Shown: piece by piece, positions 258 through 7,413 of the stretch
Layout of the letters: each line of letters opens with the position of its first letter
Position numbering within the stretch: the first letter of the stretch is position 1
Source of the DNA: Escherichia coli
Lineage (GTDB): Bacteria; Pseudomonadota; Gammaproteobacteria; Enterobacterales; Enterobacteriaceae
Assembly (NCBI RefSeq): GCF_003334405.1
Contig: NZ_QOWM01000026.1
Strand: one strand, 5' to 3'
DNA length: 37,729 nucleotides
Position numbers and translations under genes: made by a program
Notes under the pieces: generated by a model
What the model saw: the letters and a program-made list of their open reading frames with translations, nothing else
Databases searched by the model: none
What the model was told of the DNA's origin: nothing

Positions 258-1793
258 ATGGCTACATCAGTACAGACAGGTAAAGCTAAGCAGCTCACAT
301 TACTTGGATTCTTTGCCATAACGGCATCGATGGTAATGGCTGTTTATGAATACCCTACCTTCGCAACATCGGGCTTTTCATTAGTCTTCTTCCTGCTATT
401 AGGCGGGATTTTATGGTTTATTCCCGTGGGACTTTGTGCTGCGGAAATGGCCACCGTCGACGGCTGGGAAGAAGGTGGTGTCTTCGCCTGGGTATCAAAT
501 ACTCTGGGGCCGAGATGGGGATTTGCAGCGATCTCATTTGGCTATCTGCAAATCGCCATTGGTTTTATTCCGATGCTCTATTTCGTGTTAGGGGCACTCT
601 CCTACATCCTGAAATGGCCAGCGCTGAATGAAGACCCCATTACCAAAACTATTGCAGCACTCATCATTCTTTGGGCGCTGGCATTAACGCAGTTTGGTGG
701 CACGAAATACACGGCGCGAATTGCTAAAGTTGGCTTCTTCGCCGGTATCCTGTTACCTGCATTTATTTTGATCGCATTAGCGGCTATTTATCTGCACTCC
801 GGTGCCCCCGTTGCTATCGAAATGGATTCGAAGACCTTCTTCCCTGACTTCTCTAAAGTGGGCACCCTGGTAGTATTTGTTGCCTTCATTTTGAGTTATA
901 TGGGCGTAGAAGCATCCGCAACCCACGTCAATGAAATGAGCAACCCAGGGCGCGACTATCCGTTGGCTATGTTACTGCTGATGGTGGCGGCAATCTGCTT
1001 AAGCTCTGTTGGTGGTTTGTCTATTGCGATGGTCATTCCGGGTAATGAAATCAACCTCTCCGCAGGGGTAATGCAAACCTTTACCGTTCTGATGTCCCAT
1101 GTGGCACCAGAAATTGAGTGGACGGTTCGCGTGATCTCCGCACTGCTGTTGCTGGGTGTTCTGGCGGAAATCGCCTCCTGGATTGTTGGTCCTTCTCGCG
1201 GGATGTATGTCACAGCGCAGAAAAACCTGCTGCCAGCGGCATTCGCTAAAATGAACAAAAATGGCGTACCGGTAACGCTGGTCATTTCGCAGCTGGTGAT
1301 TACGTCTATCGCGTTGATCATCCTCACCAATACCGGTGGCGGTAACAACATGTCCTTCCTGATCGCACTGGCGCTGACGGTGGTGATTTATCTGTGTGCT
1401 TATTTCATGCTGTTTATTGGCTACATTGTGTTGGTTCTTAAACATCCTGACTTAAAACGCACATTTAATATCCCTGGTGGTAAAGGGGTGAAACTGGTCG
1501 TGGCAATTGTCGGTCTGCTGACTTCAATTATGGCGTTTATTGTTTCCTTCCTGCCGCCGGATAACATCCAGGGTGATTCTACCGATATGTATGTTGAATT
1601 ACTGGTTGTTAGTTTCCTGGTGGTACTTGCCCTGCCCTTTATTCTCTATGCTGTTCATGATCGTAAAGGCAAAGCAAATACCGGCGTCACTCTGGAGCCA
1701 ATCAACAGTCAGAACGCACCAAAAGGTCACTTCTTCCTGCACCCGCGTGCACGTTCACCACACTATATTGTGATGAATGACAAGAAACACTAA
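258..1793 (+). CDS. gadC: glutamate:GABA antiporter (APC family), acid resistance
   Basis: ORF track 511 aa; highly hydrophobic multi-helix protein recognised as GadC; directly downstream of gadB 3-prime end. Confidence 0.95.
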
Positions 1794-1818
1794 CCATGTC
1801 TGAATGGTTATAAGACAA

Positions 1819-1846
1819 GGGAGCGATAATTCATCGCTCCCTTTTT
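1819..1846 (+). terminator. rho-independent terminator after gadC
   Basis: 9-bp stem gggagcgat / atcgctccc with loop aattc, followed by TTTTT at 1842-1846. Confidence 0.7.
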
Positions 1847-1923
1847 CGTGCTTGCTGTCGTATTGACTTAACGGGGATAAGTACGAGAATGAGCGCACAT
1901 CTGTTTACCGGAAACCAGCACAT

Positions 1924-3243
1924 ATGGATATCTGCTCCCGAAACAAGAAATTAACGATTAGAAGACCAGCGATACTAGTTGCACTGGCACTTTTACTGTG
2001 TAGTTGTAAAAGCACGCCTCCAGAGTCCATGGTGACACCACCAGCAGGTTCAAAGCCACCAGCCACGACGCAACAATCGTCACAACCGATGCGTGGCATC
2101 TGGCTGGCCACGGTTTCTCGGCTCGACTGGCCACCGGTTTCCTCGGTTAACATTAGTAACCCCACCAGCCGGGCCCGTGTACAACAACAGGCGATGATCG
2201 ACAAACTGGATCATCTGCAACGTCTCGGCATAAACACGGTCTTTTTCCAGGTCAAGCCGGACGGTACCGCCCTGTGGCCATCGAAAATTTTGCCGTGGTC
2301 CGATCTTATGACCGGTAAGATTGGTGAAAATCCGGGTTACGATCCGCTGCAATTTATGCTCGACGAAGCCCACAAGCGTGGGATGAAAGTACACGCCTGG
2401 TTTAACCCCTATCGCGTATCGGTTAATACGAAGCCCAGTACTATCAGGGAACTGAATAGCACTCTGTCTCAACAACCGGCGAGCGTCTATGTGCAACACC
2501 GCGACTGGATCAGAACGTCTGGCGATCGCTTTGTCCTCGACCCGGGCATCCCTGAGGTTCAGGACTGGATCACATCAATAGTCGCAGAAGTGGTTTCCCG
2601 CTATCCCGTAGATGGCGTGCAGTTTGACGACTATTTCTATACGGAGTCACCGGGTTCACGGCTAAATGATAACGAAACGTACCGTAAATACGGAGGCGCA
2701 TTTGCGTCAAAAGCAGACTGGCGGCGCAACAATACTCAGCAGTTAATTGCAAAGGTATCGCACACCATTAAAAGCATTAAGCCGGGAGTCGAATTTGGTG
2801 TTAGCCCGGCAGGCGTGTGGCGTAACCGATCACACGATCCGCTCGGTTCCGATACCCGAGGCGCGGCAGCCTATGACGAATCCTACGCTGACACCCGTCG
2901 ATGGGTGGAACAAGGATTGCTGGATTACATTGCTCCCCAAATTTACTGGCCGTTCTCACGGAGTGCCGCGCGTTATGACGTGTTGGCAAAATGGTGGGCG
3001 GATGTCGTTAAACCGACCAGGACCCGCCTGTATATCGGTATCGCCTTCTATAAAGTGGGTGAACCTTCAAAGATAGAGCCAGACTGGATGATTAACGGCG
3101 GCGTACCGGAACTGAAAAAGCAGCTCGATCTTAACGATGCTGTGCCCGAAATTAGCGGCACCATCTTGTTCCGTGAGGACTATCTGAATAAACCGCAGAC
3201 TCAACAAGCGGTCAGCTATCTGCAAAGTCGCTGGGGCAGTTAA
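1924..3243 (+). CDS. yddW: lipoprotein YddW, glycoside-hydrolase-like fold, function unknown
   Basis: ORF track 439 aa; N-terminus has signal peptide ending in lipobox LLLCSC; recognised as YddW. Confidence 0.9.
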   Translation: MDICSRNKKLTIRRPAILVALALLLCSCKSTPPESMVTPPAGSKPPATTQQSSQPMRGIWLATVSRLDWPPVSSVNISNPTSRARVQQQAMIDKLDHLQRLGINTVFFQVKPDGTALWPSKILPWSDLMTGKIGENPGYDPLQFMLDEAHKRGMKVHAWFNPYRVSVNTKPSTIRELNSTLSQQPASVYVQHRDWIRTSGDRFVLDPGIPEVQDWITSIVAEVVSRYPVDGVQFDDYFYTESPGSRLNDNETYRKYGGAFASKADWRRNNTQQLIAKVSHTIKSIKPGVEFGVSPAGVWRNRSHDPLGSDTRGAAAYDESYADTRRWVEQGLLDYIAPQIYWPFSRSAARYDVLAKWWADVVKPTRTRLYIGIAFYKVGEPSKIEPDWMINGGVPELKKQLDLNDAVPEISGTILFREDYLNKPQTQQAVSYLQSRWGS

Positions 3244-3606
3244 ACTCCCATTCTTACTTTGTAACAAGCCGGTGCTTTACCCACCGGCTTGTTACCCTCT
3301 TAAACTATCCCACTAATAATCATGCTTACTTAAGTCAAATTAACCACACTTAGTTAAACAGCCATAAATCCCTAATAAAAATGTATGAATATGAAAAACC
3401 ATACGATATTCGCTGTCACCGAAAAATAATTACGATGGGCTATACTCTTCTGAAGAACAGTAGCGTAGATTGAAACTGTCCTAAATCGCTTATTTCTTTT
3501 CAGTATATCTTCATATTTCAGGAGAATATGGTGCAGTTAGTCGATCTCGCACGTTGCGTTTCATTTTGATTCCGTCTGATTTCCCAGCCTTATAAGGGTG
3601 TGAATT

Positions 3607-4989
3607 ATGGAGATGTATTTTAAAAGAATGAAAGATGAGTGGACCGGACTTGTCGAACAGGCAGATCCGCCCATTCGTGCTAAAGCCGCGGAAATTGCCG
3701 TTGCGCATGCTCATTATCTGAGTATCGAGTTTTATCGAATTGTCCGCATCGACCCGCATGCCGAAGAATTCTTGAGTAATGAACAAGTTGAGCGGCAGTT
3801 GAAGAGTGCGATGGAACGCTGGATTATTAACGTGCTTTCTGCCCAGGTTGACGATGTCGAAAGGCTAATACAAATCCAGCATACCGTCGCGGAAGTGCAT
3901 GCCCGCATAGGAATTCCGGTAGAAATTGTCGAGATGGGGTTTCGGGTGCTGAAAAAAATCCTCTATCCGGTGATCTTCTCTTCGGATTATTCCGCCGCAG
4001 AAAAACTTCAGGTCTACCATTTCTCGATTAACAGTATTGATATCGCGATGGAAGTGATGACTCGCGCGTTTACCTTTAGTGACAGTAGTGCCTCAAAGGA
4101 AGATGAAAACTATCGTATCTTCTCGTTACTGGAAAACGCCGAAGAAGAAAAAGAACGGCAAATAGCCTCAATACTTTCATGGGAAATAGATATTATCTAT
4201 AAAATCCTGCTGGATTCTGATTTAGGCAGTAGTTTGCCTTTAAGCCAGGCTGATTTTGGCCTGTGGTTTAACCATAAAGGTCGACATTATTTTAGTGGTA
4301 TTGCCGAAGTAGGCCATATCTCCCGTCTGATTCAGGATTTCGACGGTATTTTCAATCAAACCATGCGTAACACCAGAAATTTGAATAACAGAAGTCTGCG
4401 GGTGAAATTTTTATTACAGATAAGAAATACCGTATCGCAAATTATTACCTTGCTGCGTGAATTGTTTGAAGAAGTATCGCGCCACGAAGTCGGTATGGAT
4501 GTACTGACGAAATTACTTAACCGCCGTTTCCTACCGACTATCTTCAAACGCGAAATTGCCCATGCCAACCGGACCGGTACACCGCTGTCAGTGCTGATTA
4601 TTGACGTTGATAAATTCAAAGAGATCAACGATACGTGGGGCCATAACACTGGTGATGAAATTCTGCGTAAAGTCTCTCAGGCCTTTTATGACAACGTCCG
4701 CAGTAGTGATTATGTTTTCCGCTACGGGGGCGATGAATTTATCATTGTTTTGACTGAAGCTTCTGAAAACGAAACGTTACGTACCGCAGAACGTATTCGC
4801 AGTCGGGTGGAGAAAACCAAACTGAAAGCCGCAAACGGCGAAGATATTGCCCTCTCACTTTCCATCGGTGCCGCCATGTTTAATGGTCATCCTGACTATG
4901 AGCGCCTCATTCAAATAGCCGATGAAGCTCTGTATATCGCCAAAAGACGAGGTAGAAACCGTGTTGAACTCTGGAAAGCCAGTCTTTAG
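3607..4989 (+). CDS. dosC: globin-coupled oxygen-sensing diguanylate cyclase (GGDEF)
   Basis: ORF track 460 aa; C-terminal GGDEF-domain motifs (RYGGDEF) visible in translation; recognised as DosC/YddV. Confidence 0.93.
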   Translation: MEMYFKRMKDEWTGLVEQADPPIRAKAAEIAVAHAHYLSIEFYRIVRIDPHAEEFLSNEQVERQLKSAMERWIINVLSAQVDDVERLIQIQHTVAEVHARIGIPVEIVEMGFRVLKKILYPVIFSSDYSAAEKLQVYHFSINSIDIAMEVMTRAFTFSDSSASKEDENYRIFSLLENAEEEKERQIASILSWEIDIIYKILLDSDLGSSLPLSQADFGLWFNHKGRHYFSGIAEVGHISRLIQDFDGIFNQTMRNTRNLNNRSLRVKFLLQIRNTVSQIITLLRELFEEVSRHEVGMDVLTKLLNRRFLPTIFKREIAHANRTGTPLSVLIIDVDKFKEINDTWGHNTGDEILRKVSQAFYDNVRSSDYVFRYGGDEFIIVLTEASENETLRTAERIRSRVEKTKLKAANGEDIALSLSIGAAMFNGHPDYERLIQIADEALYIAKRRGRNRVELWKASL

Positions 4990-5013
4990 ATGCGCCAGGA
5001 TGCAGAGGTAATC

Positions 5014-7413
5014 ATGAAGCTAACCGATGCGGATAATGCCGCCGATGGCATTTTTTTCCCCGCCCTTGAGCAAAATATGATGGGTGCGGTGTTAATTAAC
5101 GAAAATGATGAAGTGATGTTTTTCAACCCCGCCGCAGAGAAGCTCTGGGGATACAAACGTGAAGAAGTCATTGGCAATAACATTGATATGCTGATTCCGC
5201 GGGATTTGCGTCCTGCGCATCCTGAATACATTCGTCACAACCGTGAAGGCGGTAAAGCGCGTGTTGAGGGGATGAGTCGGGAGCTGCAGCTGGAGAAAAA
5301 AGACGGCAGTAAAATCTGGACCCGTTTTGCGCTATCGAAAGTGAGCGCCGAGGGGAAAGTTTATTACCTGGCGCTGGTACGGGATGCCAGCGTAGAAATG
5401 GCGCAAAAAGAACAGACCCGACAATTGATTATTGCCGTTGACCATCTCGACCGACCGGTGATTGTCCTCGATCCGGAACGCCATATTGTGCAGTGCAATC
5501 GCGCATTTACCGAAATGTTTGGTTACTGCATTAGCGAAGCCAGCGGTATGCAGCCCGATACACTCCTGAACATTCCTGAATTCCCTGCCGATAACCGCAT
5601 TCGTTTACAACAGTTGCTATGGAAAACCGCCCGCGATCAGGACGAATTTCTGCTGTTGACGCGCACCGGTGAAAAAATCTGGATTAAAGCCTCTATCAGC
5701 CCGGTTTATGACGTGCTCGCGCATCTGCAGAACCTGGTAATGACTTTCTCGGATATCACCGAAGAACGGCAGATTCGCCAGCTTGAAGGCAATATTCTCG
5801 CCGCCATGTGCAGCAGCCCGCCATTTCATGAAATGGGGGAAATCATTTGTCGTAACATCGAATCTGTACTCAACGAATCGCATGTTTCGCTGTTCGCACT
5901 GCGCAACGGGATGCCGATACACTGGGCGTCATCTTCCCACGGTGCAGAAATTCAAAATGCGCAAAGCTGGTCAGCGACCATTCGTCAGCGTGATGGCGCG
6001 CCTGCGGGGATCCTGCAAATTAAAACCTCGTCAGGAGCAGAAACCAGCGCCTTTATCGAACGCGTGGCAGATATCAGCCAGCATATGGCCGCGCTGGCGC
6101 TGGAACAGGAAAAAAGCCGTCAGCATATTGAACAACTCATCCAATTTGATCCGATGACCGGTCTGCCAAATCGCAATAACCTGCACAATTACCTCGATGA
6201 CCTGGTCGACAAAGCCGTCTCTCCCGTGGTGTATCTCATCGGTGTTGACCATATTCAGGATGTGATTGATAGCCTTGGCTATGCGTGGGCCGATCAGGCA
6301 TTGCTGGAAGTGGTCAATCGCTTTCGTGAAAAACTCAAACCGGATCAGTATCTCTGTCGTATCGAAGGTACGCAGTTTGTCCTCGTGAGCCTCGAAAACG
6401 ACGTCAGTAACATTACCCAAATCGCCGATGAGCTACGGAATGTGGTCAGCAAGCCGATAATGATTGACGATAAACCCTTCCCGCTTACCTTGAGTATTGG
6501 CATCAGCTACGACCTGGGTAAAAACCGCGATTACTTGCTCTCCACTGCTCACAATGCAATGGATTATATTCGCAAGAATGGCGGTAACGGCTGGCAGTTC
6601 TTCAGCCCGGCGATGAACGAAATGGTAAAAGAGCGTTTGGTTTTAGGCGCAGCGCTGAAAGAAGCGATTAGCAATAACCAACTGAAACTGGTTTACCAGC
6701 CGCAAATCTTCGCAGAAACGGGTGAACTGTACGGCATCGAAGCCCTTGCTCGCTGGCACGATCCCCTGCATGGTCATGTGCCCCCTTCACGGTTTATTCC
6801 TCTCGCAGAAGAGATTGGTGAAATCGAAAATATTGGGCGCTGGGTCATCGCGGAAGCTTGCCGTCAGTTAGCAGAATGGCGTAGCCAGAATATTCATATC
6901 CCGGCGTTATCCGTGAACTTGTCGGCGCTGCACTTTCGCAGTAATCAACTGCCTAATCAGGTGTCTGATGCAATGCACGCCTGGGGTATTGACGGCCACC
7001 AGCTGACGGTAGAAATCACGGAAAGCATGATGATGGAACACGATACCGAAATCTTTAAGCGCATTCAGATCCTGCGTGATATGGGCGTGGGCTTATCGGT
7101 AGATGATTTTGGTACGGGCTTTTCCGGATTATCCCGCTTAGTCAGTCTTCCGGTAACGGAAATCAAAATTGACAAAAGTTTTGTCGATCGTTGTCTGACC
7201 GAAAAACGCATCCTTGCCTTACTTGAAGCCATTACCAGCATTGGGCAAAGCCTCAATTTAACCGTCGTGGCGGAAGGCGTCGAAACCAAAGAGCAATTTG
7301 AGATGCTACGCAAGATCCACTGTCGCGTTATTCAGGGATATTTCTTTTCCCGCCCCCTACCCGCCGAAGAAATTCCAGGCTGGATGAGCAGCGTGTTACC
7401 GCTGAAAATCTGA
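5014..7413 (+). CDS. dosP: heme-PAS oxygen-sensing c-di-GMP phosphodiesterase (PAS-PAS-GGDEF-EAL)
   Basis: ORF track 807 aa from ATG 4990; I place the start at ATG 5014 (MKLTDADNAADG..., 799 aa) because GAGG lies 5 nt upstream; EAL-domain motifs in C-terminal half. Confidence 0.9.
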   Translation: MKLTDADNAADGIFFPALEQNMMGAVLINENDEVMFFNPAAEKLWGYKREEVIGNNIDMLIPRDLRPAHPEYIRHNREGGKARVEGMSRELQLEKKDGSKIWTRFALSKVSAEGKVYYLALVRDASVEMAQKEQTRQLIIAVDHLDRPVIVLDPERHIVQCNRAFTEMFGYCISEASGMQPDTLLNIPEFPADNRIRLQQLLWKTARDQDEFLLLTRTGEKIWIKASISPVYDVLAHLQNLVMTFSDITEERQIRQLEGNILAAMCSSPPFHEMGEIICRNIESVLNESHVSLFALRNGMPIHWASSSHGAEIQNAQSWSATIRQRDGAPAGILQIKTSSGAETSAFIERVADISQHMAALALEQEKSRQHIEQLIQFDPMTGLPNRNNLHNYLDDLVDKAVSPVVYLIGVDHIQDVIDSLGYAWADQALLEVVNRFREKLKPDQYLCRIEGTQFVLVSLENDVSNITQIADELRNVVSKPIMIDDKPFPLTLSIGISYDLGKNRDYLLSTAHNAMDYIRKNGGNGWQFFSPAMNEMVKERLVLGAALKEAISNNQLKLVYQPQIFAETGELYGIEALARWHDPLHGHVPPSRFIPLAEEIGEIENIGRWVIAEACRQLAEWRSQNIHIPALSVNLSALHFRSNQLPNQVSDAMHAWGIDGHQLTVEITESMMMEHDTEIFKRIQILRDMGVGLSVDDFGTGFSGLSRLVSLPVTEIKIDKSFVDRCLTEKRILALLEAITSIGQSLNLTVVAEGVETKEQFEMLRKIHCRVIQGYFFSRPLPAEEIPGWMSSVLPLKI

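What the first reader, a model, noticed from the sequence alone, without database searches (positions are those of the whole stretch)
1924..3243. Lipoprotein YddW of unknown role between acid-resistance and c-di-GMP genes
This 439-aa lipoprotein (lipobox LLLCSC) has a glycoside-hydrolase-like fold by recollection and is wedged between gadBC and dosCP. It is followed by a long 363-bp AT-rich intergenic region. It is one of the few substantial genes in the window with no well-established function.
Basis: partly seen in the sequence, partly recalled or inferred. Interest (0 to 1): 0.3.

Follow-up and report, generated by a model that had tools for sequence, protein, structure and literature searches.

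The report
digH, a known septal cell-wall hydrolase

Summary
There is a 439-codon ORF at 1924-3243 (+) with a lipoprotein signal whose lipidated Cys is residue 28. The protein has a glycoside-hydrolase-like TIM barrel. The gene lies between gadC and dosC and is followed by a 363-bp spacer of 37% GC.

The interpretation, "no well-established function", is out of date. The protein is 438/439 identical to E. coli K-12 b1491, which is annotated digH, "divisome localized glycosyl hydrolase". It is a full-length GHL10 (PF02638) domain and is 47% identical to the crystallised peptidoglycan-cleaving domain of C. difficile Cwp19.

Published work (Yakhnina & Bernhardt 2020, read only through citing papers; Bryant et al. 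2025) shows four things:
- DigH degrades denuded peptidoglycan glycans.
- It accumulates at midcell.
- It is kept low by the Prc protease.
- It becomes essential for daughter-cell separation when lytic transglycosylases are missing.

The neighbours gadBC and dosCP are not conserved next to digH orthologues in five other Enterobacterales genera. The "wedged" position is therefore probably incidental.

The exact bond cleaved and the catalytic chemistry remain open. I infer a single-acid, substrate-assisted mechanism using the invariant Asp235-Asp236 pair. Novelty: already known. Interest: low.

The parts
1817..1846 (+). gadC terminator hairpin (11-bp stem, 5-nt loop, then a T-run). It marks the upstream boundary of the digH unit.
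   Evidence: RNA fold of 1794-1860: centroid stem AAGGGAGCGAU/AUCGCUCCCUU followed by UUU, z=-3.6. Sequence read. The simple terminator scanner did not report it.
1863..1890 (+). Sigma-70-like promoter candidate (TTGACT-16 nt-GAGAAT), 34 nt upstream of the digH ATG.
   Evidence: It is the only promoter-like site in 1750-3650. It is a consensus match only, since shuffles give 2.7 such sites on average, so this is weak evidence.
1924..3243 (+). digH (yddW, b1491) coding sequence, 439 aa plus stop.
   Evidence: ORF list. Identical DNA (100%) is annotated digH in E. coli genomes. The protein is 438/439 identical to K-12 DigH, with S172 in place of G172.
1924..2004 (+). Lipoprotein signal peptide (residues 1-27): a basic n-region, a hydrophobic core and the lipobox L-C-S.
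   Evidence: PS51257-type pattern match with Cys at residue 28. AF2 predicts a helix at 17-25 with low pLDDT.
2005..2007 (+). Cys28 codon (TGT), the predicted lipidated first residue of the mature protein. The +2 residue is Lys, so outer-membrane sorting is expected.
   Evidence: YddW is listed among outer-membrane lipoproteins in 10.1101/2021.01.05.425367, and DigH is described as an outer-membrane lipoprotein in a membrane proteomics study, PMC10546733.
2008..2088 (+). Pro/Ser/Thr/Gln-rich disordered tether (residues 29-55, KSTPPESMVTPPAGSKPPATTQQSSQP) between the lipid anchor and the barrel.
   Evidence: Composition: 7 P, 5 S, 4 T and 3 Q in 27 residues. pLDDT is about 46-52 for residues 21-50. 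The literature on disordered N-terminal linkers of outer-membrane lipoproteins lists YddW.
2086..3234 (+). GHL10 (PF02638) (beta/alpha)8 catalytic barrel, residues 55-437.
2626..2634 (+). Codons for Asp235-Asp236-Tyr237 at the C-terminal end of strand beta4. This is the proposed catalytic centre.
   Evidence: D235 and D236 are invariant and Y237 is at least 90% conserved in 53 diverse GHL10 sequences. They align with Cwp19 D195-D196-Y197, which were singled out in the crystal-structure paper PMC5765458.
3261..3295 (+). Perfect 14-bp inverted repeat with a 7-nt loop, starting 18 nt after the digH stop. It is a probable 3' end-forming or stabilising hairpin and has no T-run.
   Evidence: the repeat finder pair I1. 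RNA fold dG=-23.9 kcal/mol, z=-9.6, and 0 of 200 shuffles fold as well.

Best explanation
The ORF is digH (old name yddW), the E. coli 'division glycan hydrolase'.

Shown by sequence here:
- The protein is made with a lipoprotein signal peptide.
- Cys28 is the predicted lipidated residue, and Lys at +2 predicts sorting to the outer membrane.
- A proline-rich disordered tether of about 27 residues lets a GHL10 (beta/alpha)8 barrel reach the peptidoglycan.

Shown by others experimentally (taken from papers):
- The enzyme cleaves the glycan backbone of peptidoglycan only after amidases have stripped off the stem peptides (denuded glycans).
- It accumulates at midcell during division.
- Its level is held down by the periplasmic protease Prc (NlpI-Prc system).
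- Overproduction suppresses the chaining of tol-pal and multi-LT mutants.
- Deleting it in a strain lacking six lytic transglycosylases almost blocks daughter-cell separation and raises the denuded-glycan signal.

Inferred here (not shown):
- The bond cut is MurNAc-beta-1,4-GlcNAc (muramidase-type).
- Catalysis uses a single general acid, Asp236. Asp235 positions the substrate's 2-acetamido group for anchimeric assistance through an oxazolinium-like intermediate.
- The usual beta7 nucleophile is replaced by an invariant glycine, Gly372.
- Water resolves the intermediate on peptide-free MurNAc, giving hydrolysis. The homologue Cwp19 can instead use the C6-OH on peptide-bearing MurNAc, giving lytic transglycosylation.

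The position between gadBC and dosCP is a lineage-specific accident of gene order, not an operon or a functional link.
For: Identity:
- Matching DNA was found in 5414 of 5426 complete E. coli genomes. All ten rows listed were 100% identical and annotated digH.
- The K-12 record annotates b1491 as digH, 'divisome localized glycosyl hydrolase'.
- The protein is 438/439 identical to K-12 DigH.

Family and fold:
- GHL10 PF02638 matches at E=8.8e-136 over the full model.
- Identity to Cwp19 is 46.7% over 364 aa, and all letters and numbers agree with the published residue names.
- The AF2 model has pLDDT 90.1.

Function from the literature:
- PMC12288456 gives denuded-glycan specificity, midcell accumulation, Prc control, the synthetic chaining of deltaLT deltadigH, rescue by pdigH in deltaLT but not in deltaamiABC, and increased GFP-DamX(SPOR) signal.
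- PMC7391070 summarises the 2020 discovery.
- PMC13174416 lists DigH as one of three E. coli enzymes that turn over denuded glycans in vitro.
- PMC8820737 and PMC10671308 agree.

Lipoprotein and outer membrane.

Mechanism inference:
- 12 of 13 residues proposed for the Cwp19 active site are identical in DigH: W60, Q109, W159, R164, D235, D236, Y237, S294, Q339, Y341, G372 and F416.
- 11 of these 12 are invariant or at least 90% conserved across 53 sequences that are 36-82% identical to DigH. F416 is not on either list.
- The Cwp19 structure paper reports that the beta7 catalytic Glu of GH5/GH42/PgaB is replaced by a conserved Gly. It also reports that D196 aligns with the residue proposed to stabilise an oxazolinium intermediate in PgaB.
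- Cwp19 cleaves MurNAc-GlcNAc bonds. It gives anhydro products plus reducing-end products that end in unsubstituted MurNAc.

Context: the neighbours differ in five other Enterobacterales genera.
Against: - The primary paper (Yakhnina & Bernhardt 2020, PNAS 117:6777) is not in the held library. Its results are therefore cited second-hand.
- Secondary papers disagree on the chemistry. They call DigH an 'amidase', a 'transglycosylase/LT', a 'muramidase', 'muramidase/glucosaminidase', or 'either glucosaminidase or muramidase'. The bond cleaved is evidently not settled, and my muramidase assignment rests on homology to Cwp19 only.
- The substrate-assisted single-acid mechanism is inference. The Cwp19 authors noted that D195 is largely buried, and they proposed Arg132 (DigH R164) as a possible second catalytic residue.
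- I could not inspect model coordinates.
- A single digH deletion has no visible phenotype in wild-type cells, so its contribution under normal conditions is redundant.
Confidence: 0.9

Rival explanations
1. DigH is a lytic transglycosylase like its homologue Cwp19. On this view it cleaves MurNAc-GlcNAc non-hydrolytically to give 1,6-anhydroMurNAc ends, rather than acting as a true hydrolase.
For: Cwp19 has the same GHL10 domain (47% identity, 12 of 13 active-site residues shared). It was reported to produce 1,6-anhydromuropeptides. One paper groups DigH with lytic transglycosylases. DigH overlaps functionally with LTs.
Against: Papers that summarise the biochemistry call DigH hydrolytic: 'hydrolytic enzyme DigH' and 'glucosaminidase or muramidase'. 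Cwp19 itself gave hydrolytic reducing-end products exactly when the terminal MurNAc carried no peptide, and peptide-free MurNAc is DigH's preferred substrate.
Confidence: 0.08
2. DigH is an endo-N-acetylglucosaminidase. On this view it cuts GlcNAc-beta-1,4-MurNAc rather than MurNAc-beta-1,4-GlcNAc.
For: The specialist literature explicitly leaves this open. Both sugars carry the 2-acetamido group that a substrate-assisted mechanism would need. The structural neighbours GH20, GH18 and PgaB GH153 act on GlcNAc-type residues at subsite -1.
Against: The only GHL10 enzyme with mapped products, Cwp19, leaves MurNAc or anhydroMurNAc at the cleaved end, and its active-site residues are conserved in DigH. 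Two papers call DigH a muramidase or a likely muramidase.
Confidence: 0.2
3. The protein acts on a non-peptidoglycan polysaccharide, such as an exopolysaccharide linked to the neighbouring c-di-GMP genes or an alpha-glucan. On this view its position next to dosCP or gadBC reflects a shared pathway.
For: The closest non-GHL10 fold is the PNAG hydrolase domain of PgaB, a biofilm polysaccharide enzyme. A Deinococcus GHL10 protein, DogH, was reported to convert starch to maltose (title and abstract only). dosCP control c-di-GMP.
Against: Cwp19 showed no activity on 11 non-peptidoglycan carbohydrates, including starch. Genetic and cytological evidence ties DigH to denuded peptidoglycan. gadBC and dosCP are not neighbours of the orthologue in five other genera. 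A terminator hairpin precedes digH and a strong hairpin follows it, and a 363-bp spacer separates it from dosC.
Confidence: 0.03
4. One reading: a lipoprotein of unknown role.
For: Older database names persist, such as 'uncharacterized lipoprotein YddW (UPF0748 family)'. NCBIfam has no model for it.
Against: All the evidence listed for the best explanation applies. The gene has carried a functional name in K-12 and RefSeq annotation since the 2020 work.
Confidence: 0.02

Closest known systems
E. coli K-12 DigH (YddW, b1491), division glycan hydrolase
   Same: It has 438 of 439 residues identical and the same flanking genes (gadC and dosC). The 363-bp downstream spacer is identical. This is the same gene in another E. 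coli strain.
   Different: There is one substitution, Ser172 in place of Gly172. It lies in a surface helix region (171-182 in the model), away from the conserved active-site residues.
Clostridioides difficile Cwp19 catalytic domain (PDB 5OQ2/5OQ3; Pfam GHL10)
   Different: Cwp19 is a Gram-positive S-layer protein anchored by three CWB2 repeats. It was reported as a lytic transglycosylase and acts in stationary-phase autolysis and toxin release. DigH is a lipid-anchored outer-membrane protein with no extra domain. It is reported as hydrolytic and specific for denuded glycans, and it acts at the septum. Cwp19 Ser368, part of a cis-peptide, is Arg417 in DigH.
PgaB/BpsB C-terminal glycoside hydrolase domain (next-best structural neighbour)
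   Same: It is a (beta/alpha)8 barrel acting on an N-acetylhexosamine polymer, with a conserved Asp at the end of beta4 that aligns with DigH D236.
E. coli lytic transglycosylases acting on denuded glycans (MltA, MltE) and RlpA of Pseudomonas and Vibrio
   Same: They share the physiological job of clearing denuded septal glycans so that daughter cells separate. They are outer-membrane lipoproteins, and they are genetically redundant with DigH.
   Different: Their folds are unrelated (my own knowledge; no fold comparison with an LT was run here) and their chemistry is non-hydrolytic. DigH is a TIM-barrel hydrolase.

Membership tests
E. coli DigH (b1491) orthologue | Near-identical sequence to K-12 DigH | tested here: met
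   438/439 identical with no gaps.
E. coli DigH (b1491) orthologue | Same chromosomal position (gadB-gadC-digH-dosC-dosP) | tested here: met
   The spacer to dosC is 100% identical to K-12.
E. coli DigH (b1491) orthologue | Cleaves denuded peptidoglycan glycans, localises to midcell, and is degraded by Prc | not testable with these tools
   Taken from the literature only. The primary 2020 paper is not held.
Pfam GHL10 (PF02638, formerly DUF187) | Significant full-length match to the family HMM | tested here: met
   E=8.8e-136, score 452.5, model positions 1-310 of 311.
Pfam GHL10 (PF02638, formerly DUF187) | (beta/alpha)8 barrel superposable on the solved member Cwp19 | tested here: met
Pfam GHL10 (PF02638, formerly DUF187) | Conserved active-site set: Trp, Gln, Trp, Arg, Asp-Asp-Tyr, Ser, Gln, Tyr, and Gly on beta7 | tested here: met
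   12 of 13 are identical to Cwp19. D235, D236, R164, W60, W159, Q339, Y341 and G372 are invariant in 53 sequences.
Bacterial lipoprotein (PROSITE PS51257 type) | Signal peptide ending in a lipobox with an invariant Cys | tested here: met
   There is a single pattern match, LVALALLLCSC, with Cys28. The strict L-[ASTVI]-[GAS]-C form is not matched because position -2 is Cys.
Bacterial lipoprotein (PROSITE PS51257 type) | Actual acylation and outer-membrane location | not testable with these tools
   Lys at +2 (no Asp) predicts Lol export. The literature lists YddW/DigH among outer-membrane lipoproteins.
CAZy GH10 (endo-xylanases), as the RefSeq product name 'family 10 glycosylhydrolase' suggests | Match to the GH10 domain (Pfam PF00331) | tested here: not met
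   The Pfam scan lists only GHL10, plus weak Melibiase, GH31 and DUF6259 hits. PF00331 is absent. The family accession is from my own knowledge.
CAZy GH10 (endo-xylanases), as the RefSeq product name 'family 10 glycosylhydrolase' suggests | Two catalytic glutamates, at the ends of beta4 (acid/base) and beta7 (nucleophile) | tested here: not met
Lytic transglycosylases (functional class) | Non-hydrolytic cleavage that gives 1,6-anhydroMurNAc | not testable with these tools
   This is reported for the homologue Cwp19. DigH is described as hydrolytic.

The most novel reading that the evidence does not exclude
Two smaller points are not excluded and, as far as the held literature shows, are not stated together anywhere. 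No held paper mentions both DigH and Cwp19.

(1) GHL10 enzymes may be single-acid, substrate-assisted muramidases. The outcome, hydrolysis or lytic transglycosylation, would then be decided by whether the -1 MurNAc carries a peptide. This would reconcile 'DigH is a hydrolase' with 'Cwp19 is an LT' and would settle the bond that DigH cleaves.

(2) In Citrobacter, Pectobacterium and Kosakonia the digH orthologue is preceded at 4-105 bp by a roughly 95-aa VF530 (PF09905) gene that E. coli lacks. This hints at a partner or regulator that was lost when the E. coli locus was rearranged.
Probability: 0.35. Interest if true: 0.35.

Novelty: already known. Interest (0 to 1): 0.08.

Why it matters
As a scan finding it does not matter much. 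It is a correctly delimited gene whose function was established in 2020 and extended in 2025.

The case is still useful as a calibration point. The old name (YddW, UPF0748) and the misleading automatic product name ('family 10 glycosylhydrolase') can both make a characterised peptidoglycan hydrolase look like an orphan or like a xylanase.

The residual scientific interest is narrow. The exact glycosidic bond and the catalytic mechanism of the large GHL10 family remain unresolved. That family has 7379 representatives at 50% identity in the search here, many of them in large multidomain proteins.

Tried and rejected
- **Single-sequence AlphaFold.** It gave an unusable model (pLDDT 39.5). I repeated it with a 53-sequence alignment.
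- **NCBIfam.** It gave no real family. The only hit was a 16-bit match to the FlgH L-ring lipoprotein over residues 12-61, against a cutoff of 414 bits. This reflects signal-peptide and linker resemblance.
- **PHROGs.** No hit.
- **Rfam on 1700-3700 at E<=1.** Only sub-threshold chance hits, so the spacer holds no known RNA family.
- **Pattern-based terminator scan.** It found nothing, although folding shows strong hairpins after gadC and after digH. The second hairpin lacks a T-run, so I call it a probable rather than proven terminator.
- **The 2020 PNAS primary paper.** It could not be read. The acid-stress LT paper (PMC11232391) could not be read either.
- **Functional link to gadBC or dosCP.** Rejected, because the neighbours are not conserved.
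- **VF530 gene in E. coli.** I looked for the gene that precedes digH orthologues elsewhere. There was no blastn match in 5,426 E. coli genomes and no meaningful tblastn match in the window (best E=1.0).
- **GH10 xylanase membership.** Considered because of the RefSeq name and rejected.

Full report
**Observation**

The window carries an ORF at 1924-3243 on the + strand that encodes 439 residues. These are exactly the coordinates given. Position 1924 is the first start codon after the upstream in-frame stop.

The product begins MDICSRNKKLTIRRPAILVALALLLCSCKS. A PROSITE PS51257-type lipobox pattern matches once and places the lipidated cysteine at residue 28, which is codon TGT at 2005-2007. 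The stricter L-[ASTVI]-[GAS]-C form does not match, because position -2 is itself a Cys. Residue +2 is Lys, so by the usual Lol rule the protein should go to the outer membrane (rule from established knowledge).

Residues 29-55 are rich in Pro, Ser, Thr and Gln. They are predicted with low confidence, which fits a disordered tether.

gadC lies upstream (258-1793). dosC (3607-4989) and dosP lie downstream. The spacer to dosC is 363 bp at 37.2% GC, against 50.3% for the window. Every descriptive element of the finding is therefore confirmed.

**Identity**

The 2.1-kb stretch around the gene matches 5414 of 5426 complete E. coli genomes. The best ten records are 100% identical, and all ten annotate the gene as digH (locus view). 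In K-12 MG1655 the gene is b1491, digH, 'divisome localized glycosyl hydrolase'. The window's protein differs from it at one position, S172 in place of G172, and the downstream spacer is identical. YddW is simply the former name of DigH.

**Family and fold**

Pfam gives a full-length GHL10 (PF02638) match at E=8.8e-136 over residues 55-389. NCBIfam and PHROGs have no model for the protein.

The only solved relative by sequence is the catalytic domain of C. difficile Cwp19 (5OQ2/5OQ3), at E=4e-100 and 46.7% identity over 364 aligned residues.

A single-sequence AlphaFold run failed with pLDDT 39.5. With a 53-sequence alignment drawn from a search of 1.84 billion representatives, the model reached pLDDT 90.1 and pTM 0.86 and shows a regular (beta/alpha)8 barrel from residue 56 to 437. 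That search found 7379 relatives at E<=1e-3.

The RefSeq product name 'family 10 glycosylhydrolase' is misleading:
- There is no hit to the GH10 xylanase domain.
- The two-glutamate catalytic signature of that clan is absent.

**What is known about function (from papers)**

The primary paper is Yakhnina & Bernhardt 2020 (PNAS 117:6777). It is not in the held library, so I rely on papers that cite it.

According to Bryant et al. 2025 (PMC12288456), DigH has the following properties:
- It accumulates at midcell.
- It is negatively regulated by Prc.
- A digH deletion alone has no visible phenotype.
- In a strain lacking mltA, mltC, mltD, mltE, slt and rlpA, the deletion causes extremely long chains and a higher denuded-glycan signal.
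- Overexpression restores rod shape to that strain but not to an amidase-less strain, which makes no denuded glycans.

The Tol-Pal review (PMC7391070) recounts how DigH was found. It emerged as a multicopy suppressor and Prc target in tol-pal mutants, and it is recruited to the divisome independently of Tol-Pal. A 2026 preprint (PMC13174416) lists DigH with MltA and MltE as the only E. coli enzymes known to turn over denuded glycans in vitro. Membrane proteomics and a lipoprotein-linker study treat DigH/YddW as an outer-membrane lipoprotein.

That criterion is met.

**How it most likely works**

Shown or directly readable:
- lipoprotein signal;
- disordered tether;
- TIM-barrel hydrolase domain;
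- published substrate, location and regulation.

The chemistry is inferred. Using the pairwise alignment, I mapped onto DigH the 13 residues that the Cwp19 crystal-structure paper proposed for the active site (PMC5765458). Twelve are identical: W60, Q109, W159, R164, D235, D236, Y237, S294, Q339, Y341, G372 and F416. Only S368 changes, to R417. Eleven of the twelve are invariant or at least 90% conserved across 53 GHL10 sequences that are 36-82% identical to DigH. F416 is not on either list.

The Cwp19 paper notes two relevant points:
- The glutamate on strand beta7 that serves as nucleophile in GH5, GH42 and PgaB is replaced by a conserved glycine in GHL10.
- D196 (DigH D236) superposes on the residue thought to stabilise an oxazolinium intermediate in PgaB.

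The mBio paper on Cwp19 (PMC6016235) found cleavage of MurNAc-GlcNAc bonds. It reported anhydro products, and also hydrolytic products whose terminal MurNAc lacked a peptide.

Putting these together, I propose that DigH is a muramidase-type enzyme. Asp236 would be the general acid. Asp235 would position the MurNAc 2-acetamido group for anchimeric assistance. Water would resolve the intermediate on peptide-free MurNAc. This would also reconcile 'DigH is a hydrolase' with 'Cwp19 is a lytic transglycosylase'.

The proposal is inference, and I give it roughly even odds. The alternatives are a glucosaminidase, a true LT, or an Asp-Arg dyad. They are listed with the experiments that would decide between them.

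Secondary papers variously call DigH an amidase, a transglycosylase, a muramidase, or a muramidase/glucosaminidase. This shows that the point is unsettled. No paper in the held library mentions both DigH and Cwp19.

**Context**

digH looks like a separate transcription unit:
- A hairpin plus T-run follows gadC at 1817-1846.
- The only sigma-70-like match in the region lies 34 nt before the ATG. This is weak evidence.
- A perfect 14-bp hairpin (dG -23.9 kcal/mol, z -9.6) begins 18 nt after the stop codon.

In Citrobacter, Pectobacterium, Kosakonia, Rahnella and Erwinia, orthologues 75-82% identical to DigH have none of gadBC or dosCP beside them. Placement between acid-resistance and c-di-GMP genes is therefore specific to the E. 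coli lineage and carries no evident functional meaning.

**Verdict**

This is digH, a characterised septal peptidoglycan glycan hydrolase. Novelty is 'already known' and interest is low. What remains open is the exact bond and catalytic mechanism of the GHL10 family, together with a possible VF530 partner gene in other Enterobacterales.

Noticed in passing
window 3528-3569 (+): The 'empty' AT-rich spacer contains a 13-codon ORF ([13 protein letters not shown]) with a strong AGGAGA Shine-Dalgarno sequence just upstream of its ATG. It ends 37 nt upstream of the dosC start. The K-12 record annotates exactly this ORF as yddY (b4746, 'protein YddY').
   Followed up: partly
window 3261-3295 (+): A perfect 14-bp inverted repeat (GTAACAAGCCGGTG / CACCGGCTTGTTAC, 7-nt loop, dG -23.9 kcal/mol, z -9.6) begins 18 nt after the digH stop and is not followed by a T-run. 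It is a probable 3' end or stabilising hairpin. The pattern-based terminator scan missed both this one and the gadC terminator at 1817-1846.
   Followed up: partly
L003 5608-5895; L004 and L005 5708-5995; L006 and L007 5706-5996: In Citrobacter, Pectobacterium and Kosakonia, a roughly 95-aa gene of Pfam family VF530 (PF09905) lies on the same strand directly upstream of the digH orthologue, with gaps of 105, 5 and 4 bp. It is absent next to the orthologue in Rahnella and Erwinia. It was not found in E. coli genomes by blastn, and tblastn against the window gave only chance-level hits (best E=1.0). This may be a lost operon partner.
   Followed up: partly
window 1924-3243 (annotation issue): The RefSeq/PGAP product name 'family 10 glycosylhydrolase / glycoside hydrolase family 10 protein' conflates Pfam GHL10 ('GH-like 10') with CAZy GH10 xylanases. 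The protein has no GH10 domain hit and lacks the two catalytic glutamates.
   Followed up: yes
window 22528-22586 (-): Rfam SECIS_3 (selenocysteine insertion sequence) matches at 84.3 bits against a gathering score of 63. It is the only Rfam match above threshold in the whole window. It presumably lies inside a selenoprotein formate dehydrogenase gene.
   Followed up: no
window 4990-7413 (+): The longest dosP ORF is 807 aa, starting at 4990 immediately after the dosC stop. RefSeq annotates dosP as 799 aa, which starts 24 nt later at 5014. This is a start-codon ambiguity only.
   Followed up: no
P0122-P0130, P0169 and others: Many GHL10 representatives are very large multidomain proteins of 1000-2700 aa, some with two or three GHL10 stretches. 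The family extends far beyond single-domain lipoproteins like DigH.
   Followed up: no
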